Positions 9,504-32,687 of a stretch of DNA of 64,000 nt are shown here, in pieces. The stretch comes from Actinomycetes bacterium (GTDB taxonomy: Bacteria; Actinomycetota; Actinomycetes; DATJPE01). Position 1 is the stretch's first letter. Each line of letters begins with the position of its first letter. Location of the stretch: the NCBI GenBank assembly GCA_035506535.1, contig DATJPE010000063.1, positions 63,966 through 127,965 on the forward strand. Reading direction: 5' to 3'. A model generated the notes under the pieces. It was not told the DNA's origin and made no database searches. It saw nothing but the letters and a program-made list of their open reading frames with translations. A program made the position numbers and the translations under genes.

Positions 9504-9851
9504 AGCCGCACATGCCACCGACTTCCCGACCCCGTCCCGGGAACGAAGCCCGGGTCGTCCTCGACACTCACGAATCCCGGAACCGAACGTAATCGTCGGT
9601 GACGCATGCGTCGACGACGCCGCGTCAGTGAACGCGCGGCCTGGCGTGGAGCAACAGTCGACGCGGGCCCGCACCATCCGCCGCAAGGCTGCCTCCGGGG
9701 TTCGCCCGCAGAGTCAGTCAATTCACGTTACGCGACCCACTGCCGAACGGCGGGCGCCAGCAAACTCAACGGGGCGGTTCCTTGGCAACCGGCGGCTCTC
9801 AAGCATCGACAGCGGACAGTCGACGTCGAGAGGGTGGCTGGTGTGGTCAGG

Positions 9852-11117: not shown

Positions 11118-11445
11118 GCCGACGTCTGATCGACACGGCTAGTGACGAGCTGATCCACTTCGGAGTCGCATCACGGAGGCGGCGCCGTCACGCCAGCCCA
11201 GGGCGGTCACCGGCCGACACGCCCGGACCTCAAGAGCCCGAGGCGAGCTCTTCAAGCCGGGTCCAGCACTGATTCGACGTCCATCCAGAGCCCTCTGATG
11301 CCAGAACGTGTACCTCGGCTCTCGTGTCGGCCGAACCGGAGTAGTCACGGAAGGTCCTGTGACCACTTCTGTGAGCAGAGCACCCTTTCGGCCACGATGA
11401 AGGCACCCCATCAGGCATGCGACCTGCGGAAACACCTGGGAAGCT

Positions 11446-11535
11446 TGGCGGTGGCGGTGGGATTTGAACCCACGGAGGGGTTGCCCCCTCACACGCTTTC
11501 GAGGCGTGCTCCTTAGGCCGCTCGGACACGCCACC
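11446..11535 (-). tRNA. tRNA-Ser (anticodon CGA), 3' CCA encoded
   Basis: Reverse complement: GGTGGCGTGTCCGAGCGGCCTAAGGAGCACGCCTCGAAAGCGTG-TGAGGGGGCAACCCCTC-CGTGGGTTCAAATCCCACCGCCACC-G-CCA. The cloverleaf has a long variable arm and a CGA anticodon. Confidence 0.85.
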
Positions 11536-11558
11536 GCCGAGGAGGGTACCCGGTCCGC

Positions 11559-12080
11559 TCAGGTGGAGGCAGTCGCGCCCGGGTCCCGCCGGCCCGCGAA
11601 CCACCCTGACAGCACGTGCGCGCACTCAGCTTCCAGCACCCCCGGCACCACCTCGACCTGATGACCGGTACGCCGGTCCCGCACGACGTCCCACACCGAA
11701 CCGGCCGCGCCGGCGTCGGGACTCCACGCCCCCATGACCAGCCGCGAGACACGGGCGAGGACCAGGGCGCCGGCGCACATCGCGCACGGCTCGAGGGTGA
11801 CCACCAGGGTGCAGCCGTCCAGGCGCCAGGTGCCGAGGTTCGCCGCCGCCTCCCGCAACGCGACCACTTCGGCGTGCGCCGTGGGGTCGCCCGACCGCTC
11901 GCGCTCGTTGCGGCCGCGGCCGACGACCCGCCCGTCGCAGGCCACGACGACGGCGCCGACCGGCACCTCGTCCTCCTCGACCGCCCGCCTCGCCTCGGCC
12001 AGGGCCAGGCGCATCCAGGCCTCGTCGGGGGCGTGCACGGCGTCGGCTTCAGCTGCGCCGGCGTCGATGACTTCAGCCAA
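11559..12080 (-). CDS. tadA: tRNA-specific adenosine(34) deaminase TadA
   Basis: Zn-dependent CDA motifs HAEVVAL and PCAMCAGAL are present. The gene sits directly 3' of a tRNA-Ser gene, as is common in actinobacteria. Confidence 0.85.
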
Positions 12081-12573
12081 GGGCTGCGTCGACGATCGTC
12101 TCGTACTGCTCCCCGAAGCCGAGCCGGGTGGCGATGGAGCCGATCTGCTCGTCGGGATAGAGGTCGAGGTCCTCGCACAGCATGGCCAGCTCCATCGCCG
12201 GCAGCCCGAGGTCGGCGAAGATCTCCAGGTCGCCCGCAGGCGTCGACTCCTCCAGCTCCGGACCCTCGGGGGCGCTGAGCCCGAGCCGGACCAGCACCTC
12301 GGCCGCCAGCGGCCAGTCGGGGACGCAGGTCACGTCGGAGAGCAGCAGACGTACCTCCTCGCCGCGCACCCTCGCCGCGACGAAGAAGTCCTCGGCCACC
12401 GACACGAATCCCAGCGTGCCCACCTCGCCGGGCTGCTGGCGCAGGGCGTGGAGGAACGCCTCGAGCTCGGCACCCGTCCGCGGCGGCAGCGGGGAGACCT
12501 GCCAGATCCCGTCCTCGCGGACCGCGGCGATCGCGAAGTCGATCGCGGCATCGTCGAGGGCGCTCGCGTCCAT
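12073..12573 (-). CDS. tRNA adenosine deaminase-associated protein (actinobacterial TadA-neighbour family)
   Basis: 167 aa from ATG 12573 ([31 protein letters not shown]...). It is acidic and overlaps the tadA start by 8 nt. The longer 237-aa N-terminal extension is Pro/Arg-rich and is probably not translated. Confidence 0.55.
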
Positions 12574-12747
12574 GGGGGCATCGTCGCAGACCGCGGGGCG
12601 TCGTGGGCCGGCCGGGCGTACTCCGGTGGAGGATTCCGGGGCTGGGAGGACGGCCGGGGTCGGAGCCGGCCGGAGTGGATCTGGCGCCGGCCCCCGGCGA
12701 GCCCGGCGCGCTCCGAGACCCGGTCCGGCGGTGGATACGCTCCGGGG

Positions 12748-13383
12748 ATGCGGACCCTGGTCGTGGACCATCCCCTGGTCGCGCACAAGCTGACCAGCCT
12801 GCGCGACGAACGTACCGACTCGCCGACGTTTCGGCGGCTGGCCGACGAGCTGGTCACGCTGCTGGCCTACGAGGCGACCCGTGAGGTCCGTACCGTCGCC
12901 AAGAAGGTGCGAACGCCCGTCGGGGACGCGACCGGGGTACGTCTCGCGCAGCCGAAGCCGCTGGTCGTCCCGATCCTGCGAGCGGGGCTGGGCATGCTCG
13001 ACGGGATGGTGCGCCTGCTGCCCACGGCCGAGGTGGGCTTCCTCGGCATGGTGCGCGACGAGGCGACGCTGACGGCGTCGACGTACGCCAACCGCATCCC
13101 CGACGACCTGTCGCAGCGGCAGTGCTACGTGCTGGACCCGATGCTGGCCACCGGGGGGACGCTCATCGCGGCCGTCCGCCTGCTGCTCGGCCGGGGCGCT
13201 CGGGACGTGACGGCGATCTGCCTACTCGCCGCACCGGAGGGGCTGGTGGCGCTGGAGGAGGAGTTCGGCGCCGACGTACCGCTGCACGTCGTCATGGCCG
13301 GCCTGGACGAGCGCCTCAACGAGAAGGGCTACATCGTCCCCGGGCTCGGCGACGCCGGTGACCGCCTCTACGGCGTGGTCTGA
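12748..13383 (+). CDS. upp: Uracil phosphoribosyltransferase
   Basis: [20 protein letters not shown]... carries the PRPP-binding motif ([12 protein letters not shown]). It is the last 212 codons of ORF 11734..13383; the rest of that ORF is an artefact. Confidence 0.85.
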
Positions 13384-13396
13384 CCCCCCGTCCCTT

Positions 13397-13453
13397 TTGC
13401 AATGAACGCGGCGTTCCTCCAATAGGTTCGACTGAACGCCGCGTTCATTCCAA
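13397..13453. repeat. Double-palindrome intergenic repeat, copy A (TTGCAATGAACGCGGCGTTC-cTCCAATAGGTtCGACT-GAACGCCGCGTTCATTCCAA)
   Basis: Arms of 17-20 bp are nearly perfect inverted repeats. The element is flanked by a C-run and a G-run. It lies in the convergent spacer between upp and pntB. It is one of 9 copies in the window. Confidence 0.8.
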
Positions 13454-21565: not shown

Positions 21566-22231
21566 GTGCCCGGCATGGCCAGGTCGCGTGATGCGCTCGA
21601 CGACCCGGGGCGGGCCGAAGCCTTCAGCGACGGGGTCTTCGCCATCGCCATCACCCTGATCGTGCTCGAGATCGGCGTCCCCCATGTCGAGTCCGACCAG
21701 AGCCTGTGGTCGGCGCTGGGGAAGCAGTGGCCGTCCTACGCCGCCTACGTCGTCAGCTTCCTCGTCATCGGGATCGTGTGGGCCAACCACCACACGCTGT
21801 TCAGCTACATCGCGCGCGTCGACCGCACCCTGCTCTTCCTCAACCTGCTCATCCTGCTGACCGTCGCCCTGATCCCCTGGCCGACCAGCCTGGTGGCCGA
21901 CTACCTCGACACCGGAGGCTCCCAGGCCAAGGTCGCCGTCGCGGTCTACAGCATGGTCAACGTCGCGATGGCGGCGACGTTCTCGCTGTTCTGGTGGTAC
22001 GTCGTGCGCCGGGCACCCCACCTCCTGCACGACGACGTCGACCGTGCCGCGGCGAGTGCGTCACTGCACCGGTTCTCCCTGGGGCTGCTCGTCTATCCCC
22101 TCACCGTGCTGCTCGCCTTCGTGGTGCCGATCGCGACCATGGCCGTGCACGGCGTGATCGCCGTCTACTACGCCTTCAACCAGCTCTCGATCCCACGCTC
22201 CGGCGCGGCACCCGCCGAGGAGACCGCGTGA
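21566..22231 (+). CDS. TMEM175-family (DUF1211) potassium channel-like membrane protein
   Basis: The hallmark N-terminal motif RAEAFSDGVFAIAITLIVLE and a repeated 6-TM-like architecture are present. Confidence 0.7.
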   Translation: MPGMARSRDALDDPGRAEAFSDGVFAIAITLIVLEIGVPHVESDQSLWSALGKQWPSYAAYVVSFLVIGIVWANHHTLFSYIARVDRTLLFLNLLILLTVALIPWPTSLVADYLDTGGSQAKVAVAVYSMVNVAMAATFSLFWWYVVRRAPHLLHDDVDRAAASASLHRFSLGLLVYPLTVLLAFVVPIATMAVHGVIAVYYAFNQLSIPRSGAAPAEETA

Positions 22232-23148: not shown

Positions 23149-23284
23149 GCCGCGCGGGGGTACGGCTCACCCACCGTGCATCGGAAACAACCGACCGTTG
23201 GCGAATTCTCGATCAACTGACTAGCGGGTCAGTCCCACGTACGGCACGATCCGAGTGCGCACCCCCGCCACCAGGAGCCAGCCC

Positions 23285-24505
23285 ATGAGCAGAAGCCGCC
23301 TCTCCCGCCGGATCTGGATCGCCTCGATCGCCGTAGCCGCGCTCGGCGCAGGCACCGTCCTCTCGGTCGCCACCAGCGCACCGGCCGCGACCGTGCCCCA
23401 GGTCACCATCGGCACCAGCGTCAACGGCATCGCCGGCGACCCGATGTACACCGGCCTCAACGAGGCCGTGGGTCTCACCGTCACCAACAACTCGACGACC
23501 AAGGCCAAGCTCGGCCTGTTCACCATCGTCATCCCGGCCGGCTATCCGACAGTCACGCCGGGCAGTGTTTCCCCCAGTACGTGGGGCGAGACGTACACGA
23601 CGAAGTGCGGCCTGGTGAAGAACTGCTCGGCGCTCATCTTCGTGGCGCCGAAGGTGCCGCTCGCCTCCGCGCTGATCCCGGTCGGCGGCTCGGTGACCGC
23701 TACCTTCTCCTTCACCGCCCCGAGCAGCGCGCAGACGCTGAGCTTCCCGGTCATCGGCATCGGCCTCGGCAACGGCGTCTTCACCGGCTCCGGCAACGTG
23801 GTCGTCCAGGCCATCGCCGCAGGCCAGGCGGAGATCCTCACGCCGGGTTCCCCGCCGAAGGTGCCGCTGAGCGTCACCGTGCCGTCCGGTACCAACCTGC
23901 CTGTGACGAATGCTGCTGCGGGCCTCCCCAACGGCGCTGTCGGCGGGACCGTCCTGACCGTGGCCCCCTGCACCGACCCTGCGTGCGCTCAGTCCGCACC
24001 CTCCCCCAGCGGCGACGACGAGATCACCCCGGCGTCGACGTCGTCGACGGAGATCACCCTCTCGGGCATCTTCACCGACCCCAAGCTCGGTGAGCTCTAC
24101 ACCGACACGGCTCCAGGCTCGGTGAGCTGGACCTGCCCGAACTCCAAGTGCCCGCACGCTGACTCGGTCGAGTCCGAGGGTGGCACCAACTACCTGTACA
24201 ACTTCGGCGCGACCGGCGACGAGGAGGAGCAGTACGAGGACTACCTCGCCTACCCCGTGTATGTGGGGATCCGCGATCCGCAGACCCAGTCCTACGTGTT
24301 TTCTCCCAACCCCGCGCCCGCATGCCGCGACAACGATGACTCGGAGCAAGCCGGGCAGACCGGCCAGATCGTCAGCACGGCAGCCGTCGCCGCCGGGTAC
24401 TGCGTCGACGTGTACGCGATGAGCCGCACGGATAACTCATTCACCGGTGACCTGACGATGACGCTGTTGTTCGTCGAGGACCCGAAGCTGCGGACCACGC
24501 CGTAG
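23285..24505 (+). CDS. Secreted hypothetical protein (signal peptide, Thr/Ser/Gly-rich, multiple Cys pairs)
   Basis: MSRSRLSRRIWIASIAVAALGAGTVLSVATSAPAA is a signal peptide. The protein contains 8 Cys, and no known catalytic motif was recognised. Confidence 0.5.
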   Translation: MSRSRLSRRIWIASIAVAALGAGTVLSVATSAPAATVPQVTIGTSVNGIAGDPMYTGLNEAVGLTVTNNSTTKAKLGLFTIVIPAGYPTVTPGSVSPSTWGETYTTKCGLVKNCSALIFVAPKVPLASALIPVGGSVTATFSFTAPSSAQTLSFPVIGIGLGNGVFTGSGNVVVQAIAAGQAEILTPGSPPKVPLSVTVPSGTNLPVTNAAAGLPNGAVGGTVLTVAPCTDPACAQSAPSPSGDDEITPASTSSTEITLSGIFTDPKLGELYTDTAPGSVSWTCPNSKCPHADSVESEGGTNYLYNFGATGDEEEQYEDYLAYPVYVGIRDPQTQSYVFSPNPAPACRDNDDSEQAGQTGQIVSTAAVAAGYCVDVYAMSRTDNSFTGDLTMTLLFVEDPKLRTTP

Positions 24506-24512
24506 TAGAAGG

Positions 24513-27500
24513 TCAGATCTCGAGCGGCCCTGGTCGCCTCGGGTACCGCCGGCTCCCGGCGAACCCGAGGCGGTCCAGGGCCTGTTCGCTCTCGGCGTCC
24601 CAACGCCGGGCCGACTCCTCGTCACCCCGCATCCGCGCCACCCGCGCCAACTCGGCGAGGATGAACCCGCACTCGACCCGGCCCTGGGCGTCCGCCGTCT
24701 CCAGCGCTCGATGCAGCGTCTCCTCGGCGATGTCGACGTCGCCGAGGTCCACCTCGGCCGCGCCCTGCAACCGGAGCAGCCACGGCAGCAGGTAACCGGC
24801 GTCCAGCGCGGTCGCACGTACGGCTGCGTCGTCGGCGAGGTCCCGCGCCTCCTGGGCCCGCCCCTCGCCGAGCAGGCCGAGGGCGATCGCGGCGTCGGTC
24901 TCCGCTACCTCGGACGGCTCGCCGAACTCGATGAACATCGCGCGCGCTCCTTCCAGTTCGGCTTGGCCCTCGTCGTGCTGCCCCTCGAGGACCAGCGCGA
25001 GCCCGAGCGCGCGGTGGGCGACAGCGATGAAGTCGCCGACACCGGCTCCCTGCAGGGTGGGGATGAGCCGGCGCAGGATGTCCTCCGCCTCGCGGGTACG
25101 GCCGAGCCGGACGAGGACGTCACCCACGTTGCACCCGGTCTGGGCCGCACCGACCGTGTCGCCGGACTCCTCGGCGAGGCGCTGGGCGCGCTCGAACATC
25201 TCCAGCGCCTCCTGGCCGCGCCCCTGGATCCACGCCAGGACGGCGAGGTTGTTGAGCGCGCGCGATTGCCCGGCGCGAAAGCCGAGGTGCTCGTAGAGCT
25301 CCAGCGCCTGCTGCCCGTACGGCCGGTCCGGCTCGCCCCCGAGCATGGACGTCACGCCGTGCAGCGCCTCCAGCGCATCCGCCAGAGCAGCGGTGTCGCC
25401 GGAGGCCTCGGCGTCGCGTTCGGCCAGACGAGCCCACTGGAGGGCGTCCCGGTAGCGGCCCTGGTTCTCCCGGACGACCGCGTACACGCCCTCGAGCCGG
25501 CTGCGCGCGGCCAGGCTCTGGGCGTCGCCGTGCCCGTCGAGCAGCCGCAGGCCCCGTGTCACGCTTCGCAGTGCAACCGGCTGGCGGCCAAGGCGGTTCT
25601 GGATCGCCGCCTCCTCCTTGAGCACGAGGGCGGCTCGGGCCGGGTAGCCCTTGAGCCGCGCGCGTGCCCCCTTCAGCGCGACGAGCGCGGCCTCGTTGCG
25701 CCCCAACCGGTTCCGCGCCTCACCGAGGGAGAGGTAGGCCGACGCCACCTGTTCGTCGGGGACGTCGCGGAGCCCGCGCACCGAGGCGACCGCGCGCTCG
25801 AGGTGCTCCTCGGCCTCGACGTAGGCGTACTTCTCCGCCGCGCGCTCCCCGGCGAGCCGCGCGTAGTACCACGCCTTGTCGTGACGGGCCGCGTGGAAGT
25901 AGTGCAGCGACAGCAGCTCGGCCACGTCGTCCGGGTCCGACGTCCGCGCCTCGATCACCTCTCCCGCCCGCCCGTGCAGCTCGCGCCGCAGGCGGAACGG
26001 CAGTCCCTCGTACGCCGTGTCGCGCAGCAGCTGGTGGTCGAAGTGGAATCGCCCGTGCCCCTCGGCCTGGATGAAGAACGACATCCGCCGCAGCGCCGCC
26101 CGGCTCGTCGGCAGCGGGTGCCCCTGGAGCAGCGCCCGCAGCGTCGCCTCGTCGAAACGCATGCCGAGCACCGAGGCGAAACGCAGCACGGTGCGCTCGT
26201 CCGGGGGCAGGCGGTCGATCTGGCTGGTGATGAGCGCCTCGACGGTGCTCGGCAGCGCGTCGAGCGAGGCGCCTTCACGGGCCGCCAGGGCGAGGCCGCG
26301 CAGGAACAGGGGGTTGCCGTTGGCTCGGGCCGCCAGCGCGGCGACGTCGTGCGGGGCTAGCGCGGTGTCGGCGAGCGCGGCCATGACCAGCGAGCTCGCG
26401 GCTGCGGCGTCGAGCGGCGCCGGTCGGACCTCGACGACCGGGTAGCGCGGCGACGGGCGGAACCCCTCCCCGACGTCGCGGCGGGTGACCACCACGAGCC
26501 AGGGCCGACCCGCCAGGCCGAGGCACAGCTGCTCGAGCAGGTCCACGGACGCCTCGTCCATGAGGTGGACGTCGTCGAAGACCAGCACGGCCTGACCGGG
26601 CTGAACCGCCGTCGCGAGGCGTACCACCACCTCCTCGGTCCGTGACCGGCGGAACCGCTCGTCGAGCGCGTCCACCTCGGGCGTGCTCGGCAGGTCCACG
26701 TCGAGCACCTGTCCCACCAGCGGCAGCCAGGGCAGCAGCGAGGGGTCGGCACGCGTAGCGCTCTCGACCAGCGCGGCGACCAGCGTCTCCTCGTCGGCCT
26801 CCTCGGAGACGTCGAGCAGCTCGCCGAGCAGCGCCCGGAACGGCCAGTACGGCGTCGCCGTCTGGAACTCGTCGCACCGCGTGGTGAGCACCCGCGCAGG
26901 GGTGTCCCGCAGCATCTCCTCGACCAGACGCGACTTGCCGATGCCCGGCTCCCCCACGAGGTCCACGAGCTGGCCGCTGCCCGCCGCTGCCTTCTCCGCC
27001 GCCTCGCGCAGGACGCCCAGCTCGGCCTCGCGACCGATGAACGGCGAGTCCTCCCTGCCCCGACGCTCGCTGAGCAGGCGCCCGAGGCTGAACGCGTGCA
27101 CCGGCTCGGACTTGCCCTTGACCAGGAACGGCGGCATCGCCTCGGCGTCGAAGCGTGCCGCCGAGGCCTCGACCACCGCGGCCGTGGCGAGGACCTGCCC
27201 GGGCTCGGCCTTGCCCATCACCCGGGCCGCCAGGTTGATGGCGTCGCCCTTGACCGAGAACGTCTTGCGGAACGACGGGCCGAAGTCACCGGCGAAGACG
27301 GGTCCGCAGTTAACGCCGATCCGGATGGGGAGCTGCCCGACCAGGTCGACGACGTGCCGGGCCGCGCGCAGCATCCGCTCCTCGTCGTTGCCGAGGCTGA
27401 CCGGGGCCCCTGCAGTGAGCATGATCTTGCCGCCGTCACGGTTGATGTCGGACTCGAAGAAGGTCACCCCGTGCCGCTCGGTGGCGTCCTGCACGTTGCG

Positions 27501-28340
27501 CACGCACTCGTCGAGCGCCTCGGCGAGGGCCTGCGGCCCACGTTCGGCGAGGACCGCGTCGGTTCCGGAGAACTGCACGAAGGCCACCGCGATCCGCCGG
27601 TGCTCGGGCTCGCCGGACGCGCTGAGCAGGTGGGCGCGGATGTTCGGAGGGATGAGCGTGGCGAGGTCCAGACCCGCCGTCGACGGCCGCGGGACGACCT
27701 CGCTGTCCTCGACCACGGGGTCGGCCGCGAGGAGGAAGCCCCCGCCCTTGGCGTCCCCCACGCTCGACGCCTCGAGCAGGGCGGCGGTCTCGGGGGACAC
27801 GACGACCTCGCCCGCCTCGGCGATCGCCTCCATCTCGGCCGTACGGCTCGCGGCCGGCCCGCTGACGATGAGCTCGCGGTGCACGGCGGGGTCGCCGACG
27901 AGGAAGAAGTGGAACGCTCCGCTGTGAATGCCCACGGACATGCGGAGCTCGACGCGTCCCGAGCCGGTGCTGAGCTGGCCGATCCGGCGCAGCCGGGCCC
28001 GCATCCGCGAGCTGGCCAGCGCCGCCCGAGCGGCGTGGTCGGGGCCCTCGAACAGCAGGAGCACGGCGTCGCCGCCCCACTTCACCAGGCCGGCGCCCGT
28101 CGGGTAGGCAACCGAGAGCAGGTCGGCGAAGGTGGCGTTGAGAATGTCGCTCATCTCCTCCGCGCCGACCTTGCCCTTGCGGGCGAGTCGCTCGGTCAGC
28201 GCGGTGAAGCCGGAGATGTCGACGAACGCGAGCGAGCCGTCGACCTCGCGCCAGAGGGCATCGGGGGTGTCGCGCAGCCAGGTCAGGGCGAGCCGGGGGA
28301 CGTACGGCTCCAGCAGGGCCACGTCCGCGCGCTCCGCCAT
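24513..28340 (-). CDS. Multidomain STAND-type signalling protein with two class III adenylate/guanylate cyclase domains, an AAA+/NB-ARC-like ATPase and TPR repeats. It has no C-terminal HTH.
   Basis: 1275 aa. The first cyclase domain is FVDISGFTALTERL...WGGDAVLLLF and the second is IAVAFVQFSGTDAV...GDAINLAARV. The P-loop is GEPGIGKSRLVEE. About 500 aa of TPR-like repeats follow. Unlike the mycobacterial Rv0386-type proteins it lacks a LuxR HTH. Confidence 0.8.
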   Translation of the reverse strand: MAERADVALLEPYVPRLALTWLRDTPDALWREVDGSLAFVDISGFTALTERLARKGKVGAEEMSDILNATFADLLSVAYPTGAGLVKWGGDAVLLLFEGPDHAARAALASSRMRARLRRIGQLSTGSGRVELRMSVGIHSGAFHFFLVGDPAVHRELIVSGPAASRTAEMEAIAEAGEVVVSPETAALLEASSVGDAKGGGFLLAADPVVEDSEVVPRPSTAGLDLATLIPPNIRAHLLSASGEPEHRRIAVAFVQFSGTDAVLAERGPQALAEALDECVRNVQDATERHGVTFFESDINRDGGKIMLTAGAPVSLGNDEERMLRAARHVVDLVGQLPIRIGVNCGPVFAGDFGPSFRKTFSVKGDAINLAARVMGKAEPGQVLATAAVVEASAARFDAEAMPPFLVKGKSEPVHAFSLGRLLSERRGREDSPFIGREAELGVLREAAEKAAAGSGQLVDLVGEPGIGKSRLVEEMLRDTPARVLTTRCDEFQTATPYWPFRALLGELLDVSEEADEETLVAALVESATRADPSLLPWLPLVGQVLDVDLPSTPEVDALDERFRRSRTEEVVVRLATAVQPGQAVLVFDDVHLMDEASVDLLEQLCLGLAGRPWLVVVTRRDVGEGFRPSPRYPVVEVRPAPLDAAAASSLVMAALADTALAPHDVAALAARANGNPLFLRGLALAAREGASLDALPSTVEALITSQIDRLPPDERTVLRFASVLGMRFDEATLRALLQGHPLPTSRAALRRMSFFIQAEGHGRFHFDHQLLRDTAYEGLPFRLRRELHGRAGEVIEARTSDPDDVAELLSLHYFHAARHDKAWYYARLAGERAAEKYAYVEAEEHLERAVASVRGLRDVPDEQVASAYLSLGEARNRLGRNEAALVALKGARARLKGYPARAALVLKEEAAIQNRLGRQPVALRSVTRGLRLLDGHGDAQSLAARSRLEGVYAVVRENQGRYRDALQWARLAERDAEASGDTAALADALEALHGVTSMLGGEPDRPYGQQALELYEHLGFRAGQSRALNNLAVLAWIQGRGQEALEMFERAQRLAEESGDTVGAAQTGCNVGDVLVRLGRTREAEDILRRLIPTLQGAGVGDFIAVAHRALGLALVLEGQHDEGQAELEGARAMFIEFGEPSEVAETDAAIALGLLGEGRAQEARDLADDAAVRATALDAGYLLPWLLRLQGAAEVDLGDVDIAEETLHRALETADAQGRVECGFILAELARVARMRGDEESARRWDAESEQALDRLGFAGSRRYPRRPGPLEI

Positions 28341-28379
28341 CGCCTCCCCACATCCTCTGGCCGGCCCCGTGCCCGGAGT

Positions 28380-30038
28380 CTATGAGCCTGACGGGGGCTC
28401 CTGCCTGAGCGCCGAGGCGAGGTCTCGGGCCCGGTGGGCGTCAGCGACCTCGCTGGCGAGCGCGTGGCCGTCCGCACTGCCGGTCACAGCCGCCAAGAAG
28501 TCGGCACCGCTCAGCACGAGCAGCCGGGCCGGGGACCGCGCCGTCACGGTGGCCGTGCGGGGCACCGACCGCAGCAGGGCCACCTCCCCGAAGGCGTGGC
28601 CCGGTGCCAGCGTCTGTGGCCGGGCGACCCCGTCGACCGTGACCGTGAACAGGCCGTCCGCGATGACGTAGAAGTCCTGCGCGTCCTCGCCCTGCACCAC
28701 GACGTCGGTGCCGGCCGTGACCTCCGTCCACCGCGCGTTCCGGGCCAGGCGCTCCAGCTCGAACTCGGGGAGCACGGCGAGGAAGCCGACGGTCCGCAGG
28801 AGGCGGATCTCGTAGGGAAGGTAGACAGCGCGGTCGTCCAGGCGCCGGATGAACCATGCGCTCCCCAGGGCGAGGGCCACGGCGCCCGCTCCCAGCGGCA
28901 CGAAGGTCTGGGCGGGATCGAGCCAGCCGAGCAGCAGCGACACGGAGGCGGCGCCGACCGCCAGCCCGACCAGCGACATCCCCTCCTGCACGGCGAAGAC
29001 CCGCGCCAGCACGGCGTCGTCGATCGCGCGTTGCAGCAACGTCCGACCGCAGACCATGAGCATCGCCTCCGCGGCCCCGACGAGGGCGATCACGACCATG
29101 GCAGCACCGAGGCCGGACACGACCGACACGACGGCGAACCCGGCACCTTCGGCCACGCCCAGGAGGACGATCGCCGGTCCGAGCCGGCGCCGCCGAGCGA
29201 TGAGCGCCGCAGCGGCTGCACCCACCAGGCCGCCGATGCCGATGGCCCCCACGACCAGGCCCGCGCCGGACTGGCCGTGGTGCAGGGTGTCGACCGAGAA
29301 CGCGACGCCGAGCACGTCCAGCGCCCCGGCGAGGAAGAACGTCGTGGTCAGCAGGACGAGCAGGGTCAGGGCGGGCCAGTCCCCGCGCAGCGAACGCAGC
29401 CCCTGGAAGGCAGCCCGCCACCCGTCGGCCTCCTCGTCGGCCGCGGCCCGACCGAGGTGCAGCCCGCTGGAGAGCAGGGTGGCGACGGCCGCCGCGATAG
29501 CCGCGCCGGCGAACACCAGCCACGGGCCGGCGTACGCGGCACCGAAGCCGGCGAGCACGGGGCCGAGGAAGGCGGCGACGCCGTCGAGCACCGAGGACAG
29601 CGAGTTCGCGGAGACGAGGTGGTCGCTGGTCCGCGACAGCTGGGGCAGGGCGGCGAAGTGGATCGGCCGCACGACGGCCACGGCGACCGTGGCCGTCGTC
29701 GACGCGGCCACGACCAGGGGCAGGGGCGCGGAGGCCAGGATGGCGATCAGGGTGAGGGTGACGGTCGCGGTCACCCCGGCGTAGGCGAGCGCGAGCGCGC
29801 GCCCTCTCGGCAGCCGGTCGCCGATCGCGGCGAGGGCCGGGGCGAGCATCGAGGCAGGGACCAGCTGGATGACGGTGACGACGCCCGCCGTGCGGGCCCC
29901 GTCGGCCGCGAAGACGTACAGGATGACCGCGAGCCAGATCGAGAACTCGACCAGCCCATAGAGGCCATAGGCCACCAGCACCCTGCGCAGCCCCGTCCGC
30001 GCCTGCAACGCCCGCAGGGTCACGGGAAGAGCACGCAT
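28380..30038 (-). CDS. MFS transporter fused to a C-terminal cyclic nucleotide-binding (CAP-effector) domain
   Basis: About 552 aa from ATG near 30038 (MRALPVTLRALQARTGLRRVLVAYGLYGL...). It has 12 predicted TM helices. The C-terminal cNMP-binding signature is FGEVALLRSVPRTATVTARSPARLLVL. Confidence 0.7.
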   Translation of the reverse strand: MRALPVTLRALQARTGLRRVLVAYGLYGLVEFSIWLAVILYVFAADGARTAGVVTVIQLVPASMLAPALAAIGDRLPRGRALALAYAGVTATVTLTLIAILASAPLPLVVAASTTATVAVAVVRPIHFAALPQLSRTSDHLVSANSLSSVLDGVAAFLGPVLAGFGAAYAGPWLVFAGAAIAAAVATLLSSGLHLGRAAADEEADGWRAAFQGLRSLRGDWPALTLLVLLTTTFFLAGALDVLGVAFSVDTLHHGQSGAGLVVGAIGIGGLVGAAAAALIARRRRLGPAIVLLGVAEGAGFAVVSVVSGLGAAMVVIALVGAAEAMLMVCGRTLLQRAIDDAVLARVFAVQEGMSLVGLAVGAASVSLLLGWLDPAQTFVPLGAGAVALALGSAWFIRRLDDRAVYLPYEIRLLRTVGFLAVLPEFELERLARNARWTEVTAGTDVVVQGEDAQDFYVIADGLFTVTVDGVARPQTLAPGHAFGEVALLRSVPRTATVTARSPARLLVLSGADFLAAVTGSADGHALASEVADAHRARDLASALRQEPPSGS

Positions 30039-30180
30039 CCGGCCGTCCCCGTCTGCTCGCCTCTTGTTTGCTGCGAGGATAGGAGGTCTGGCCACAGGAG
30101 CGCAGCGGGAACGCCGCGTCGGCGCACCAAAGGGCTGATACGTTCGAAGCACGCGTGGTGCGCCGGCGAAGGAGGGTGCG

Positions 30181-30597
30181 GTGACGCCGTACGAGATGCT
30201 CGCGCAGGTGGACCTGTTCAAGACCCTGCCGAGCGACGTCATCTACGAGATGGTCGAACGCAGCTCGACGCACCGGACCGCGCCGGGAGCGGTGCTGGTC
30301 GAGCAGGGCAGCCCCGACTCGGGCCTGCGTCTGATCATCGAGGGGACCGCGACCGTCTCGGTCAACGGGGTGGAGCGAGGCGAGATGAAGACCGGCGACT
30401 ACTTCGGCGAGATCTCCCTCATCGACTCACAGCCGCGTTCGGCGACGGTCATCGCCGGCCCGGAGGGCGTACGGACGCTCGCCATGTCGCCGCTGACCTT
30501 CTCGCAGCTGCTCGACGCTCACCCGCAGATCGCCCGCAAGCTGTTGCCGGTGCTCACGGCGCGGATCCGTCGCATCGAGGCGGCCCAGCACGACTAG
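30181..30597 (+). CDS. Stand-alone cyclic nucleotide-binding domain protein
   Basis: 138 aa. The signature is GDYFGEISLIDSQPRSATVIA (the FGE...RSA phosphate-binding cassette). There is no output domain. Confidence 0.7.
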   Translation: MTPYEMLAQVDLFKTLPSDVIYEMVERSSTHRTAPGAVLVEQGSPDSGLRLIIEGTATVSVNGVERGEMKTGDYFGEISLIDSQPRSATVIAGPEGVRTLAMSPLTFSQLLDAHPQIARKLLPVLTARIRRIEAAQHD

Positions 30598-30608
30598 GTG
30601 GTGGTGAC

Positions 30609-31439
30609 GTGCGGCTGACGCTGCTGGGGGTGCGTGGCTCCACGCCCGCGCCCGGGCGAGACTTCGTGCGCTACGGCGGGCACACCTCGTGCATCGCGGT
30701 GACGCGTGACGACGAGGACCTGCCGGATCTGGTGCTCGACGCCGGCACCGGCTTCCGCGGACTTCCCGGGCTGCTCGGCGGAGCCGCGTACGACGGCTCG
30801 ATCCTGCTCAGCCACCTGCACTGGGACCACGTCCAGGGGATCCCGTTCTGCCCCTCCGGGGACCGCGACGACTCCCGGGTCGATGTGTTCCTGCCCGCGC
30901 AGGAGGGCCTGAGCGGGCGCGACCTGTTGGCCCAGCTGATGGCACCCCCGGCGTTCCCGATCACCCCGGAGGGCCTGCGCGGTGACTGGTCCTTCCACGC
31001 GGTGCAGCCGGGAATGTTCGAGACCGACGGATACGTCGTCACCGCCTGCGAGGTGACGCACAAGGGCGGTCGCACGTACGCCTACCGCGTCGAGGCGGAC
31101 GGTGCCTCCCTCGCCTACGCCCCGGACCACGCCCCCGCGCTCGGCCTCGACGATGCCACCCTGCGCACCATGGAGGGCGTCGACCTGCTCGTTCAGGACG
31201 CGCAGTTCATCGACCGCGAACGGCTGATCGCCGACGACTACGGGCACGCGACCGTCCGGGACGCCGTCGAGCTCGCCCAGCGCGTCCATGCGCGTGCCGT
31301 CCTGCTCTTCCACCACGGGCCGGGGCGCAAGGATGACGACCTCGACCGCATCGCCGACGACATCGCCGCGGACGTCACGGTCCTCACCGCCTACGAGGGC
31401 ATGGTCCTCGACGTGACGAGCCGGACCATGAGCCGGTGA
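30609..31439 (+). CDS. MBL-fold metallo-hydrolase (candidate class II-like cNMP phosphodiesterase or nuclease)
   Basis: GTG 30609 follows AGGTGGTGA. The SHLHWDHVQG motif matches HxHxDH. It is the last 277 codons of the artefactual 1001-aa ORF 28434..31439. Its stop overlaps the next gene's start. Confidence 0.7.
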   Translation: MRLTLLGVRGSTPAPGRDFVRYGGHTSCIAVTRDDEDLPDLVLDAGTGFRGLPGLLGGAAYDGSILLSHLHWDHVQGIPFCPSGDRDDSRVDVFLPAQEGLSGRDLLAQLMAPPAFPITPEGLRGDWSFHAVQPGMFETDGYVVTACEVTHKGGRTYAYRVEADGASLAYAPDHAPALGLDDATLRTMEGVDLLVQDAQFIDRERLIADDYGHATVRDAVELAQRVHARAVLLFHHGPGRKDDDLDRIADDIAADVTVLTAYEGMVLDVTSRTMSR

Positions 31440-31918
31440 GCGAGCTCCTCGCGCTGTGCGCCGACCTGCCCGTCGAGGCTGTTCCGCCCGGACAGACCCT
31501 CATCGTCGAGGGTGACGCCCCGGGCCCGATGTACGTGCTGCGCACCGGCAGCGTCAGCGTCGAACGCGACGGCGTACCGGTGGCCCGCATCCACGCCTCC
31601 GGTGCGGTCCTCGGCGAGATGTCCGTCGTCCTGGAGCGACCCGCCACCGCGACGGTACGCGCGGAGCAGGAGGTGACGGTCCACGTCGTCGAGGACCCTC
31701 ACGACTTCCTCAGCGCCAACCCTGGCGCCGCGCTGGCGGTGCTGCGCACGACGGCGGCGCGGCTCGACGGGATGACGCAGTACCTCGTGGACGTCAAGCA
31801 GCAGTACGCCGGTCTGGGCGGCCACCTGGCGATGGTCGACCAGATCCTGGACGCCCTGGTCCACCACCAGCCGTCGACCGCGCGGACCGGGTCCGTCCGT
31901 GACCCCGAGGTGGGCTGA
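31436..31918 (+). CDS. Stand-alone cyclic nucleotide-binding domain protein (second copy)
   Basis: 160 aa. The signature GEMSVVLERPATATVRAEQEVTV is a cNMP-binding cassette. There is an ATGA overlap with the MBL hydrolase gene. Confidence 0.7.
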   Translation: MSELLALCADLPVEAVPPGQTLIVEGDAPGPMYVLRTGSVSVERDGVPVARIHASGAVLGEMSVVLERPATATVRAEQEVTVHVVEDPHDFLSANPGAALAVLRTTAARLDGMTQYLVDVKQQYAGLGGHLAMVDQILDALVHHQPSTARTGSVRDPEVG

Positions 31919-31967
31919 GGGTCCGCCGGCGAGGCCGGCCGACGCGGAGCCCTGCGATCCGGAAGCC

Positions 31968-32687
31968 TCAGGCCAGGTCCACCGTCTGCCGGTCGAAGAC
32001 GCCGTACCACTCCGCGGTGCCCCGCTCGGTGTCGAGGGTGATGTGCGGGGGCACCGGGCCGACCTGGCGCCCGGCGTTGAACACCCACGTCGAGCCGATC
32101 CGGGCATGCCACGAGCCGCCCTCGACCCACGGCGCCTGGTGGATGTGCCCGCACAGCACCGCGAACGGCTGGTAACGCTCGATCCAGGACGTGAGGTCGT
32201 GGTCGGGGAACTCGCGCCGGCCGTCGCTGCACAGCACCGTGCCGGCGGGCGGGGCGTGGTAGAGCCACACCCACGTGTCCGGCCGGTCCACCGCGGCCGC
32301 TTGCAGCAGGGCGTCGACCTCGGCCCTGGCCGTCGGCCCGTCCCACCAGGGGCAGACCGTGAAGCGCACGCCGTCGATGTCGACCGAGGCGCCGTCCGCG
32401 TGCAGGCCGGGCGCGCTGAGCAGGCGCAGCCAGCCGGCGACCTGCTCGCCGTCGCGACCCGGCCCGTCGAGGTCGTGGTTGCCGGACGCGGCGAGGACGG
32501 TGGCTCGCTCGGCCAGCTGTCCGAGATAGCGCTCGAGGACGACGACCTGGACCTCGTGCGGCACCGGGCTCACCACGTCGGCGAGGTCGCCGGGCAACGC
32601 GACCACGTCGACGTCCGCGGCGGCCTGGACGAGCCAGTCGTAGTGCGGCAGCCGGTAGTGCAGGTCCGAGGCCACGAGGACGCGCAC
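31968..32687 (-). CDS. Calcineurin-like metallophosphoesterase, CpdA/Rv0805-like class III cyclic nucleotide phosphodiesterase candidate
   Basis: 239 aa from GTG 32687. The motifs D-x-H (ASDLHY), GD (LPGDL), GNHD (ASGNHDLD) and GH..GHIH (CGHIHQ) match the class III PDE signature set. Confidence 0.6.
   Translation of the reverse strand: MRVLVASDLHYRLPHYDWLVQAAADVDVVALPGDLADVVSPVPHEVQVVVLERYLGQLAERATVLAASGNHDLDGPGRDGEQVAGWLRLLSAPGLHADGASVDIDGVRFTVCPWWDGPTARAEVDALLQAAAVDRPDTWVWLYHAPPAGTVLCSDGRREFPDHDLTSWIERYQPFAVLCGHIHQAPWVEGGSWHARIGSTWVFNAGRQVGPVPPHITLDTERGTAEWYGVFDRQTVDLA

What the first reader, a model, noticed from the sequence alone, without database searches (positions are those of the whole stretch)
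28380..30038. 12-TM MFS transporter fused to a cNMP-binding domain
The fusion wires cyclic-nucleotide binding directly to transport, i.e. ligand-gated transport. The gene sits immediately downstream of the dual-cyclase gene on the same strand, which suggests a producer-and-effector pair.
Basis: partly seen in the sequence, partly recalled or inferred. Interest (0 to 1): 0.5.

Follow-up and report, generated by a model that had tools for sequence, protein, structure and literature searches.

The report
Cyclic-nucleotide-sensing MFS transporter in cNMP gene cluster
This is a real, widely conserved actinobacterial gene that fuses a 12-helix membrane transporter to an intact cyclic-nucleotide sensor and sits beside genes that probably make, degrade and bind cyclic nucleotides; the design is already catalogued, but nobody has shown what it transports or that the nucleotide controls transport.

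Summary
Window 28380-30038 (minus strand) encodes a 552-aa protein with a 12-TM MFS core, a conserved ordered linker and a C-terminal cNMP-binding domain.

- **Ligand contacts:** the phosphate-binding cassette (FGEVALLRSVPRTATV) keeps the canonical Glu and Arg. Both are kept in 323 of 328 full-length relatives.
- **Not a frameshift artefact:** there are more than 470 close homologs and 824 clusters at 50% identity, mostly actinobacterial MAGs.
- **Gene cluster:** the gene lies 39 nt upstream (not downstream) of a soluble-adenylyl-cyclase-like tandem cyclase with STAND and TPR regions. It is divergent from an operon of a single-domain CNB protein, an MBL-fold candidate phosphodiesterase and an Arg-less CNB protein.
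- **Conservation of the cluster:** all five genes recur in a 67%-identical relative with different flanks. Four different cyclase architectures sit next to family members elsewhere (7/106 adjacent versus 1/499 non-adjacent genes).

The best reading is a cAMP-modulated (or other cNMP) EntS/DHA3-like exporter inside a local producer, eraser and reader module. Gating, ligand and substrate are inferred, not shown.

MFS-CNBD fusions are already noted in the literature (Willson et al. 2019, cited in PMC10710835). I found no characterised member and no solved structure. Verdict: a new member of a known but unstudied kind, of moderate interest.

The parts
28380..30038 (-). MFS-CNB fusion gene, 552 aa. 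It is 100% identical to an NCBI MAG protein annotated 'cyclic nucleotide-binding domain-containing protein [Actinomycetes bacterium]'.
28863..29990 (-). 12-TM MFS core (aa 17-392). It has a motif-A-like G73-D-R-L-P-R-G-R80 in the TM2-3 loop, a motif-C-like G159-P-x-x-A-G164 in TM5, and conserved R124-P125-x-H127 in TM4.
   Evidence: Pfam MFS_1; AF2 helices; Foldseek TM 0.7-0.82 to inward-facing MFS structures; conservation
28764..28862 (-). Ordered, conserved linker (aa 393-425): helix 394-403 carrying R-R-L-D401-x-R403, then helix 408-414 (E410, L413, L414).
   Evidence: pLDDT 90-98 across this stretch; D401 kept in 306/328, L414 in 309/328; motif shared with the 28%-identical paralog subfamily
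28401..28763 (-). Cyclic-nucleotide-binding domain (aa 426-546): beta-barrel plus B and C helices. It is cytoplasmic by MFS topology and the positive-inside rule.
   Evidence: Pfam cNMP_binding; PDB sequence hits to PKG, PKA-R and MloK1 CNB domains only; AF2
28548..28592 (-). Phosphate-binding cassette FGEVALLRSVPRTAT (aa 483-497) with Glu485 and Arg494.
   Evidence: sequence; invariant in A1/A2; E and R both kept in 323/328
28341..28379 (-). 39-nt gap between the MFS-CNB stop and the cyclase start. No terminator-like site, so co-transcription is likely.
24513..28340 (-). 1275-aa tandem class III cyclase plus AAA_16 (STAND) plus TPR. CHD1 (aa 25-209) carries both metal Asp residues (FVDISGFT, GGD). 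CHD2 (aa 244-415) lacks them but carries the Asn/Arg (NLAAR). This makes a pseudo-heterodimer like soluble adenylyl cyclase.
   Evidence: Pfam; best PDB hit is human ADCY10 with C1 and C2 in the same order; residue read-out
30039..30180 (.). 142-bp divergent intergenic region between the MFS-CNB gene and the CNB1-MBL-CNB2 operon. No conserved operator was found.
30181..30597 (+). CNB1: a 138-aa single-domain cNMP-binding protein with a canonical cassette (FGEISLIDSQPRSATV).
   Evidence: conserved next to family genes in L059, L063/64 and L038
30609..31439 (+). 276-aa MBL-fold hydrolase, a candidate cNMP phosphodiesterase. S68-H-L-H-W-D-H74 fits the [T/S]HXHXDH signature of atypical class-II phosphodiesterases (Rv1339, CpdA, YfhI).
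   Evidence: Pfam Lactamase_B_2; motif invariant; signature definition in PMC9293780; Foldseek to RNase Z and YhfI; homologs hit PF23023 Apyc1
31436..31918 (+). CNB2: a 160-aa CNB protein. The cassette Arg is replaced by Ala (LGEMSVVLERPATATV), and the protein has a roughly 60-aa C-terminal extension.
   Evidence: same substitution in the L059 and L064 orthologs

Best explanation
The gene encodes a secondary-active MFS transporter, most like the EntS/DHA3 group of proton-coupled exporters. Its cytoplasmic C-terminus continues through a rigid, conserved linker into a functional cyclic-nucleotide-binding domain.

Proposed mechanism (inferred, not shown). The co-transcribed soluble-adenylyl-cyclase-like cyclase makes a cyclic nucleotide, most likely cAMP. 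The nucleotide binds the cassette (Glu485, Arg494). This repositions the CNB B/C helices and the TM12 linker. That in turn shifts the transporter's inward/outward equilibrium, so transport rate follows the local nucleotide level.

The divergent operon probably shapes the signal. It supplies a candidate eraser (an MBL-fold atypical class-II phosphodiesterase) and two soluble CNB proteins that could act as buffers or adaptors. Together the five genes would form a self-contained producer, eraser and reader module.

The direction of regulation (activation or inhibition) and the substrate are unknown. A small cationic or amine-type export substrate is only a weak lead.
For: Shown by the sequence and tools:
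- Both domains score above Pfam thresholds.
- The model is a confident single-chain fold with 12 TM helices, an ordered linker and a CNB fold (pLDDT 93.2, pTM 0.89). The MFS part is closest to inward-facing VMAT, SotB, MdfA and SPNS2 structures.
- The cassette Glu and Arg are kept in 323/328 full-length relatives spanning about 30-67% identity. Linker D401 is kept in 306/328.
- MFS motif-A-like and motif-C-like residues are conserved, so a working transporter is under selection.
- The five-gene module is conserved in L059 (67% identity) despite different flanks.
- CNB2-MBL-CNB1 next to MFS-CNB occurs without the cyclase in L063/64.
- A CHD-AAA16-TPR cyclase overlaps a 61%-identical family gene by 4 nt in L061/62.
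- Four cyclase architectures are recruited next to family genes.
- Guanylate_cyc is the commonest Pfam family immediately downstream, in 6 of 51 loci.
- Adjacent versus non-adjacent enrichment: cyclase 7/106 versus 1/499 (p=3e-5); any cNMP-related gene 15/106 versus 8/499 (p=3e-7).
- The cyclase pairs metal-binding CHD1 with Asn/Arg-bearing CHD2, as in human ADCY10.
- The MBL protein carries the SHLHWDH signature.

Precedent: SLC9C1 is a solute carrier gated through a CNBD (PMC6052114).
Against: - No binding or transport data exist for any family member. None was found in the literature searches.
- The CNB-transporter interface could not be inspected, because the tool returns no coordinates or PAE.
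- My covariation analysis gave only noise for inter-domain pairs.
- Most family loci have no cyclase within 10 kb (about 45 of 53), so the pairing is recurrent but not obligatory.
- The conserved cytoplasmic TM10-11 patch (R332...E352) is also present in CNB-less relatives. It is therefore not a fusion-specific docking site.
- The nucleotide's identity is open. The substrate-specifying positions of the adjacent cyclases are non-canonical: Asn/Ser in the window's CHD2, and Ala/Thr, Lys/Met and Lys/Gly elsewhere. R-T-A in the cassette does not discriminate cAMP from cGMP (my knowledge of PKG, HCN and MloK1).
- The MBL protein scores far below the NCBIfam phosphodiesterase cut-off (37 versus 400 bits) and is as close to RNase Z.
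Confidence: 0.6

Rival explanations
1. Scaffold or transceptor. The MFS-CNB protein does not gate transport by cNMP. It acts as a membrane anchor or sensor that localises cNMP signalling. For example, it could recruit the STAND/TPR cyclase or the small CNB proteins to the membrane, or report transporter occupancy to them. In this reading the CNB domain serves mainly as a local nucleotide sink or interaction module.
For: Two extra single-domain CNB proteins and a TPR-rich cyclase (TPR is a protein-interaction module) are encoded in the same module. Family genes often form arrays of 2-3 paralogs, which fits hetero-oligomeric assemblies.
Against: Transport motifs (motif A, the TM5 GP motif, charged TM4 residues) are as conserved as the cassette. 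The linker is short, ordered and conserved rather than a flexible tether. No interaction data exist.
Confidence: 0.15
2. Feedback valve. The transporter exports the cyclic nucleotide itself, or a product made under its control, and opens when cytoplasmic cNMP rises. It would act together with the phosphodiesterase to end the signal.
For: Producer, degrader and reader genes cluster tightly. The transporter is exporter-like: TIGR00900 H+ antiporter and EntS are its nearest NCBIfam models, and it has a motif-C-like TM5. Actinobacteria are known to secrete cAMP by an unidentified route (my knowledge, not tested here).
Against: There is no evidence on the substrate. Most family members have no cyclase nearby. 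Neighbours in other lineages point elsewhere: a PLP decarboxylase-CNB fusion, amine oxidases and an Orn/Lys/Arg decarboxylase.
Confidence: 0.08
3. Pycsar-like anti-phage system. The STAND/TPR cyclase senses infection and makes a cNMP. The CNB-membrane protein is the abortive-infection effector that collapses the membrane or drains metabolites.
For: The overall logic is the same: a cyclase plus a CNB-fused membrane effector. PADLOC gives domain-level hits of the CNB domains to PycTIR (2.5e-12 and 1.3e-20) and of the cyclase to PycC (8e-9). MBL homologs hit the Anti-Pycsar Apyc1 Pfam family. STAND plus TPR is a common defence-sensor layout (my knowledge).
Against: PADLOC matches cover only the generic CNB or cyclase domains, and the MBL has no PADLOC hit. 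The effector is a complete, motif-intact 12-TM MFS under purifying selection, not a 2-4 TM pore. The family is usually chromosomal beside housekeeping neighbours (LacI regulators 12/53, UvrD helicases 5/53), mostly without a cyclase, and often in paralog arrays. A self-encoded phosphodiesterase would quench a defence signal. The flanks show no mobile or defence-island features.
Confidence: 0.04
4. The CNB-fold domain senses something other than a 3',5'-cyclic nucleotide, as CooA, CprK and NtcA do. In that case the cyclase neighbourhood would be coincidental.
For: The CNB fold is used for other ligands in the CRP/FNR family (my knowledge). The neighbouring CNB2 has lost the cassette Arg in all orthologs. 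One family member, L049, has a degenerate cassette.
Against: The fused domain keeps the full canonical FGE...R[ST]A cassette in 98% of members. Its best matches are genuine cAMP/cGMP-binding domains (PKG, PKA-R, MloK1). cNMP-metabolism genes are statistically enriched next to it.
Confidence: 0.05

Closest known systems
MFS-CNBD fusions catalogued by Willson, Dalzell, Chapman & Thomas 2019 (Microbiology 165:419), as cited in the review PMC10710835. From memory, also M. tuberculosis Rv3728 and Rv3239c (McCue et al. 2000).
   Same: [quoted passage not shown]
   Different: The catalogue is bioinformatic, and I found no characterised member. The original paper is not in the held library, so I could not check whether this exact subfamily is listed. 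As I recall, the mycobacterial proteins are about 1000 aa with extra domains; this was not tested here.
SLC9C1 (sperm Na+/H+ exchanger) together with soluble adenylyl cyclase ADCY10
   Same: A secondary transporter regulated through its own cytoplasmic CNBD (PMC6052114). Here too the neighbouring producer is a tandem-domain cyclase resembling soluble adenylyl cyclase, so the producer-plus-CNBD-transporter pairing is analogous.
   Different: Different transporter superfamily (CPA/NhaA fold versus MFS). SLC9C1 also has a voltage-sensor domain and is eukaryotic. There is no sequence relationship outside the CNB domain.
CNBD-gated channels (MloK1, HCN, CNG)
   Same: A C-terminal CNB domain joined to the last TM helix by a structured linker, with the canonical cassette. 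MloK1's CNBD is among the PDB sequence hits (E about 5e-8).
   Different: Those are tetrameric pore channels gated through a gating ring. This is a rocker-switch carrier and is presumably monomeric (oligomeric state unknown).
EntS / DHA3-type MFS exporters (TIGR00900, NF007792, Pfam MFS_3)
   Same: These are the nearest transporter models. They align across nearly the whole 12-TM core (aa 34-392). The short central loop and the TM10-11 'T-L-L-Q-R...R-V-F' motif are shared with CNB-less relatives.
   Different: All scores are far below the curated cut-offs (76 versus 320, 53 versus 324, 20 versus 27 bits). It is therefore a relative, not a member. The substrate cannot be transferred, and those families have no CNB domain.
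Pycsar effectors (PycTM, PycTIR)
   Same: A cNMP-binding domain fused to an effector and encoded beside a cyclase; domain-level PADLOC hits.
   Different: There is no full-length match, and the effector is a complete MFS transporter. The genomic distribution and neighbours are housekeeping-like.

Membership tests
Major facilitator superfamily (Pfam MFS_1, PF07690) | Profile match above the curated threshold | tested here: met
   63.7 bits versus cut-off 33.4, aa 21-363 covering profile positions 2-347 of 347
Major facilitator superfamily (Pfam MFS_1, PF07690) | 12 TM helices in two six-helix bundles, MFS fold | tested here: met
   AF2 model with 12 TM helices and a short central loop at aa 190-220. 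Foldseek TM-score (target-normalised) 0.7-0.82 to VMAT1/2, SotB, MdfA and SPNS2.
Major facilitator superfamily (Pfam MFS_1, PF07690) | Motif A (G-x-x-x-D-R/K-x-G-R-R/K) in the TM2-TM3 loop | tested here: met
   G73-D-R-L-P-R-G-R80. R78 is kept in 291/328. Some members have A-E-R in place of G-D-R. The motif definition is from my knowledge.
EntS / DHA3 exporters (NF007792, TIGR00900, PF05977) | Score above the curated family cut-off | tested here: not met
   52.9 versus 324, 76.2 versus 319.6 and 20.1 versus 27 bits. It is related but not a member.
Cyclic nucleotide-binding domain (PF00027) | Profile match above threshold and CNB fold | tested here: met
   49 bits versus 27.5. Beta-barrel plus cassette helix plus B/C helices in the model. 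PDB hits are to PKG, PKA-R and MloK1 domains.
Cyclic nucleotide-binding domain (PF00027) | Phosphate-binding cassette with the conserved Glu and Arg (F-G-E...R-[ST]-A) | tested here: met
   F483 G484 E485 ... R494 T495 A496. Both E and R are kept in 323/328 relatives.
Cyclic nucleotide-binding domain (PF00027) | Actual binding of cAMP or cGMP, and which one | not testable with these tools
   Needs ITC, DRaCALA or a co-structure. R-T-A does not discriminate between the two (my knowledge).
cNMP-gated transporter (functional class, as for SLC9C1) | Transport rate changes on nucleotide binding | not testable with these tools
   Indirect support only: a conserved ordered linker and genomic linkage to cyclases.
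Pycsar defence system | Full-length match of cyclase and effector to PADLOC Pycsar models; defence-island context | tested here: not met
   Only the CNB and cyclase domains match, and the MBL has no hit. The neighbours are housekeeping.
Soluble-adenylyl-cyclase-like class III cyclase (neighbour 24513-28340) | Tandem catalytic domains: the first with two metal Asp, the second with the transition-state Asn and Arg | tested here: met
   CHD1 has FVDISGFT and GGD. CHD2 has FVQFSG (no Asp) and NLAAR. Best PDB hit is ADCY10 with both domains in order, E 1.6e-17.
Soluble-adenylyl-cyclase-like class III cyclase (neighbour 24513-28340) | Adenine-specifying Lys plus Asp/Thr pair | tested here: inconclusive
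   The Ser at the Asp/Thr position resembles the Thr of soluble adenylyl cyclase. The position aligned to the Lys of bacterial adenylate cyclase chains reads Asn. The alignment there is weak.
Atypical class-II cNMP phosphodiesterase (Rv1339/CpdA/YfhI; neighbour 30609-31439) | [T/S]HXHXDH metal motif on a PF12706 MBL fold | tested here: met
   S68-H-L-H-W-D-H74 is invariant or nearly so in 40 homologs. Motif definition from PMC9293780. PF12706 scores 73 bits. Foldseek to YhfI gives TM up to 0.79.
Atypical class-II cNMP phosphodiesterase (Rv1339/CpdA/YfhI; neighbour 30609-31439) | Equivalog-level match to NF041851 (cyclic nucleotide-degrading phosphodiesterase) | tested here: not met
   37.3 bits versus cut-off 400. 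RNase Z models score as well or better.

The most novel reading that the evidence does not exclude
The five genes form a self-contained cyclic-nucleotide circuit whose output is transport. The MFS-CNB protein would be a nucleotide-opened exporter that expels the second messenger itself, or a metabolite made under its control. That would identify the long-sought actinobacterial cAMP efflux route and give the first bacterial secondary carrier directly gated by a cyclic nucleotide.
Probability: 0.07. Interest if true: 0.75.

Novelty: new member of a known kind. Interest (0 to 1): 0.38.

Why it matters
Post-translational control of bacterial transporters by second messengers is well documented for c-di-AMP acting through CBS and RCK domains. 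In the held literature I found no documented case of a cAMP/cGMP-binding domain controlling a bacterial MFS carrier.

This family is large: 824 clusters at 50% identity. Its ligand-binding residues are almost invariant. In this window it comes packaged with its likely producer, eraser and two extra readers. That makes it a compact and experimentally approachable system for testing whether a cyclic nucleotide can gate a rocker-switch carrier.

It would also be a bacterial counterpart of the sperm pair of soluble adenylyl cyclase and SLC9C1. Cultured relatives exist: Longivirga aurantiaca (L012, L034) and Pengzhenrongella phosphoraccumulans (L047).

As it stands, this is an annotated domain fusion of a recognised type, with unknown substrate and unproven regulation.

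Tried and rejected
- **Covariation:** mean-field DCA on 316 unique full-length sequences (Meff 212) was meant to find CNB-to-MFS contacts. Only a few intra-domain pairs stood out, and the inter-domain pairs were implausible noise. No conclusion.
- **Docking patch:** I first took the invariant cytoplasmic TM10-11 patch (R332, T333, Q336, R337, R346, E352) for a fusion-specific docking site. It is rejected as such, because CNB-less relatives (L054, L009, L036) carry the same motif.
- **Shared operator:** I looked for a CRP-type site in the 142-bp divergent intergenic region. Alignment with L059, L063 and L038 and a palindrome search found nothing conserved.
- **Promoter and terminator scan** of 24000-32500 found nothing, which is uninformative for a 73% GC actinobacterium.
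- **AlphaFold-database fold search** (afdb50) was unavailable, so the domain arrangement could not be compared with other predicted fusions.
- **The primary survey paper** (Willson 2019) is not in the held library.
- **Defence-system reading:** tested with PADLOC and rejected as the main explanation.
- **Amine-export idea:** the PLP decarboxylase-CNB neighbour occurs in one lineage only (L060 and L065, 87% identical). Amine oxidase neighbours occur in 3 of 53 loci and an Orn/Lys/Arg decarboxylase in 1 of 51. I keep it as a lead, not a conclusion.
- **Nucleotide identity from cyclase specificity residues:** the residues are non-canonical and heterogeneous. Inconclusive.
Full report
**1. What is there**

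On the minus strand, an ORF runs from the ATG at 30038 to a TAG ending at 28380 and encodes 552 aa. A longer reading from 30242 is possible. It would overlap the divergent gene at 30181-30597, and no relative supports it: homolog N-termini align to Met-30038 (MRALPVTLRAL...). A GGGGA lies 8-12 nt upstream of that ATG.

Pfam places MFS_1 on aa 21-363 (63.7 bits, cut-off 33.4) and cNMP_binding on aa 439-517 (49 bits, cut-off 27.5). The local GC content is 0.71-0.74. The protein is 100% identical to an NCBI record named 'MAG TPA: cyclic nucleotide-binding domain-containing protein [Actinomycetes bacterium]'. The reported coordinates and architecture are correct.

**2. Not an artefact**

The word-indexed search returned 473 homologs. 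The best 120 are all 524-573 aa and carry both Pfam domains. The exhaustive search of 1.84 billion 50%-identity representatives found 824 clusters at E<=1e-30. Nearly all of the top 150 align in one stretch from about residue 10 to about 540.

A genome scan found 55 family loci. Almost all are from actinobacterial MAGs (Nanopelagicales, Frankiales, Sporichthyaceae, Kineosporiaceae, Mycobacteriales). Two cultured organisms also carry the family: Longivirga aurantiaca and Pengzhenrongella phosphoraccumulans. A frameshift origin is excluded.

**3. Anatomy**

An AlphaFold2 model built on 101 sequences is confident (mean pLDDT 93.2, pTM 0.89). It shows the following elements:
- twelve TM helices with a short central loop (aa 190-220);
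- a linker helix at aa 394-403 directly after TM12;
- a short helix at aa 408-414;
- a CNB fold at aa 425-546, made of a beta-barrel, a cassette helix (485-489) and the B and C helices.

Even-numbered loops and both termini are Arg-rich (R14/R18/R19, D74-R-L-P-R-G-R80, R281-R284, R332/R337/R346, R398/R399). By the positive-inside rule and standard MFS topology, the CNB domain is therefore cytoplasmic (inference).

The TM2-3 loop carries a motif-A-like G-D-R-L-P-R-G-R. TM5 carries a G159-P-x-x-A-G164 that resembles the antiporter motif C (motif definitions from my knowledge). The nearest curated transporter models are TIGR00900 'H+ antiporter' and EntS. Both fall far below their cut-offs, so this is an EntS/DHA3-like relative and not a member.

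In the PDB, the MFS half superposes best on inward- or cytosol-facing structures. Examples are VMAT1 8tgl (TM 0.82), VMAT2 8xo9 (0.79), SotB 6kkk (0.79) and MdfA 4zow (0.76). No solved chain covers both halves, either by fold or by sequence, where all 74 sequence hits fall in aa 400-543.

**4. Is the sensor competent?**

The phosphate-binding cassette reads F483-G-E485-V-A-L-L-R-S-V-P-R494-T-A-T-V. This is the canonical F-G-E...R-[ST]-A pattern that contacts the ribose and the cyclic phosphate.

In an HMM-guided alignment of 328 unique full-length relatives (about 30-67% identical), Glu485 is kept in 326 and Arg494 in 324. Both are kept in 323. The barrel glycines G450 and G462 are kept in 325 and 328.

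The linker is also conserved: D401 in 306/328, L414 in 309/328 and L413 in 280/328. It is predicted with pLDDT 90-98. The R-L-D linker motif is shared even with a paralogous subfamily only about 28% identical. A conserved, ordered linker is what a mechanical coupling would need, but that is inference.

**5. Neighbourhood in the window**

Thirty-nine nucleotides downstream on the same strand lies a 1275-aa protein (24513-28340). It has two class III cyclase domains, an AAA_16 STAND NTPase and TPR repeats. No terminator-like site separates the two genes.

The best PDB match of the cyclase is human soluble adenylyl cyclase ADCY10, with C1 and C2 aligned in the same order (E 1.6e-17). CHD1 has both metal-binding Asp residues (FVDISGFT, GGD) but lacks the transition-state Asn/Arg. 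CHD2 has lost the Asp residues (FVQFSG; Gly at the second site) but keeps N-L-A-A-R. One composite active site should therefore form within the chain, as in soluble and mammalian cyclases (my knowledge).

The residue seven positions before the Asn is Ser, where ADCY10 has Thr. The position aligned with the adenine-specifying Lys of bacterial adenylate cyclase chains reads Asn. cAMP is therefore the likeliest product but not a safe call.

A likely operon is transcribed divergently from a 142-bp spacer, with small overlaps or gaps between its genes:
- **CNB1** (30181-30597): 138 aa, canonical cassette.
- **MBL-fold hydrolase** (30609-31439): 276 aa.
- **CNB2** (31436-31918): 160 aa.

The MBL protein carries S-H-L-H-W-D-H, which is invariant in 40 homologs. 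This fits the [T/S]HXHXDH signature that defines the atypical class-II cAMP phosphodiesterases Rv1339, CpdA and YfhI (PMC9293780). Its model (pLDDT 87.7) matches RNase Z and YhfI best, and many homologs hit the Apyc1 Pfam family. It is nevertheless far below the NCBIfam phosphodiesterase cut-off, so 'candidate phosphodiesterase' is the right label.

**6. Is the neighbourhood meaningful?**

- **Whole module.** CNB2, MBL and CNB1 divergent from MFS-CNB and the tandem cyclase recur in L059. Its transporter is 67% identical, and its flanks are unrelated to the window's.
- **Module without the cyclase.** In L063/L064 (64% identical) the cyclase is absent.
- **Reverse order.** In L061/L062 (61% identical) a 946-aa CHD-AAA_16-TPR cyclase sits upstream and overlaps the transporter start by 4 nt.
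- **Other cyclase types.** Among the genome loci, Zn-ribbon-CHD-AAA_16-TPR cyclases lie convergent in L020, L035 and L042. Response-regulator-CHD cyclases follow tandem transporter pairs in L006, L013, L017 and L050.

Four different cyclase architectures have therefore ended up beside this transporter family.

Using my own GC3-based gene calls, Guanylate_cyc is the commonest Pfam family immediately downstream (6 of 51). Cyclase genes occupy 7 of 106 adjacent positions against 1 of 499 other positions in the same loci (odds ratio 35, Fisher p=3e-5). For any cNMP-related gene (cyclase, MBL, stand-alone CNB) the counts are 15/106 against 8/499 (p=3e-7). These tests ignore shared ancestry, so the number of independent events is nearer four to six.

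Most loci (about 45 of 53) have no cyclase within 10 kb. The commonest neighbours are paralogs (tandem copies and a divergent copy about 28% identical), LacI regulators (12/53) and UvrD helicases (5/53).

**7. Mechanism proposed**

Shown: a conserved MFS carrier; a conserved, canonical CNB domain on the cytoplasmic side; a conserved ordered linker; and recurrent genomic linkage to cNMP synthesis, binding and (candidate) degradation genes.

Inferred: nucleotide binding to the CNB domain moves its B/C helices and the TM12 linker. This biases the rocker-switch cycle, so efflux follows the local nucleotide level set by the adjacent cyclase and phosphodiesterase. I put this at about 0.6.

Unknown: the sign of regulation, the ligand (cAMP favoured) and the substrate.

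A weak substrate lead comes from related loci. In L060 and L065 a group-II PLP decarboxylase, itself fused to a CNB domain, lies 38 nt upstream of a 60-62% identical transporter. Its best NCBIfam match is diaminobutyrate decarboxylase, below cut-off. Amine oxidases flank three loci and an Orn/Lys/Arg decarboxylase flanks one. The decarboxylase fusion is a single lineage, so this stays a lead.

**8. Rivals**

- **Scaffold or transceptor role (0.15).** The data cannot exclude it.
- **Nucleotide-opened exporter of the nucleotide itself (0.08).** This is the most interesting reading that remains open.
- **Pycsar-like defence (0.04).** The cyclase-plus-CNB-effector logic and the STAND/TPR sensor layout suggest it. 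However, PADLOC matches only the generic domains. The effector is a motif-intact transporter, the context is housekeeping, and the module encodes its own phosphodiesterase.
- **A non-nucleotide ligand (0.05).** This is unlikely given the canonical cassette.

**9. Comparison with what is known**

A 2023 review states that MFS transporters are found fused to CNBDs, PAS domains and UspA. It cites Willson et al. 2019. The original paper is not held.

From memory, M. tuberculosis Rv3728 and Rv3239c are MFS proteins with cNMP-binding regions (McCue et al. 2000). The held papers list them only as putative efflux pumps.

Searches for a characterised cNMP-regulated MFS carrier found none. No PDB entry has this architecture up to April 2026.

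The closest functional precedent is SLC9C1, a Na+/H+ exchanger gated through a CNBD (PMC6052114). In sperm it works with soluble adenylyl cyclase. The cyclase here resembles that enzyme, which makes the window's gene pair a bacterial analogue in logic, though not in ancestry.

**10. Verdict**

It is a new member of a known but uncharacterised kind. Interest is moderate (0.38). A specialist would not be surprised by the fusion. The compact five-gene module and the near-invariant cassette do make the gating question directly testable.

Noticed in passing
window 31436-31918 (+); orthologs L059 8152-8643 and L064 265-756: CNB2 is a stand-alone CNB protein whose cassette Arg is replaced by Ala (LGEMSVVLERPATATV) in all three orthologs, while the Glu is kept. 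It also has a conserved C-terminal extension of about 60 aa. A conserved Arg-less CNB inside a cNMP module suggests altered ligand binding or a non-binding adaptor role.
   Followed up: partly
L060 7073-8962 and L065 4850-6736: A 628-aa group-II PLP-dependent decarboxylase is fused to a C-terminal cNMP-binding domain and lies 38 nt upstream of a 60-62% identical MFS-CNB gene. Its nearest NCBIfam model is L-2,4-diaminobutyrate decarboxylase, below cut-off. An enzyme and an exporter that both carry CNB domains hint at a co-regulated amine pathway. Only one lineage was seen (the two copies are 87% identical).
   Followed up: partly
window 24513-28340 (-): The neighbouring cyclase has the full domain order of mammalian soluble adenylyl cyclase: C1-like and C2-like catalytic domains, then a STAND NTPase and TPR repeats. 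Human ADCY10 is its best PDB match. The residue aligned to the substrate-specifying Lys is non-canonical (Asn), so product identity is uncertain.
   Followed up: partly
L004, L006, L013, L014, L016, L017, L019, L023, L024, L050 and others (around positions 8000-13400 of each locus): Family genes commonly occur as arrays: two or three tandem copies about 50% identical, plus a divergently transcribed paralog about 28% identical. All copies have intact CNB cassettes. This hints at subfunctionalisation or hetero-oligomers.
   Followed up: partly
L006 13480-14496, L013 15544-16287, L017 13407-14531, L050 12413-13477: Response-regulator-receiver plus cyclase fusions lie directly downstream of tandem MFS-CNB genes. 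Their cyclase domains have Ala in place of the substrate Lys and Thr in place of Asp.
   Followed up: no
window 31968-32687 (-): A 239-aa calcineurin-like metallophosphoesterase (Pfam Metallophos) is convergent on CNB2. Class III cNMP phosphodiesterases belong to this superfamily, but it has no NCBIfam match and is not conserved next to the module in L059.
   Followed up: partly
window 21566-22231 (+); L063 5334-5984: A TMEM175-type K+ channel homolog (Pfam E 6.9e-32) lies about 6 kb from the module in the window and about 2 kb from it in L063. This may be residual synteny rather than a functional link.
   Followed up: no
L049 9971-11599: One distant family member has a degenerate cassette (FEESALAQASPSTGTL: both the Gly-Glu and the Arg are lost). 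This looks like a natural loss of nucleotide sensing within the family.
   Followed up: no
window 23255-24505 (+): A 416-aa predicted secreted, Thr/Ser/Gly/Pro-rich protein with no Pfam match lies just beyond the cyclase gene.
   Followed up: no
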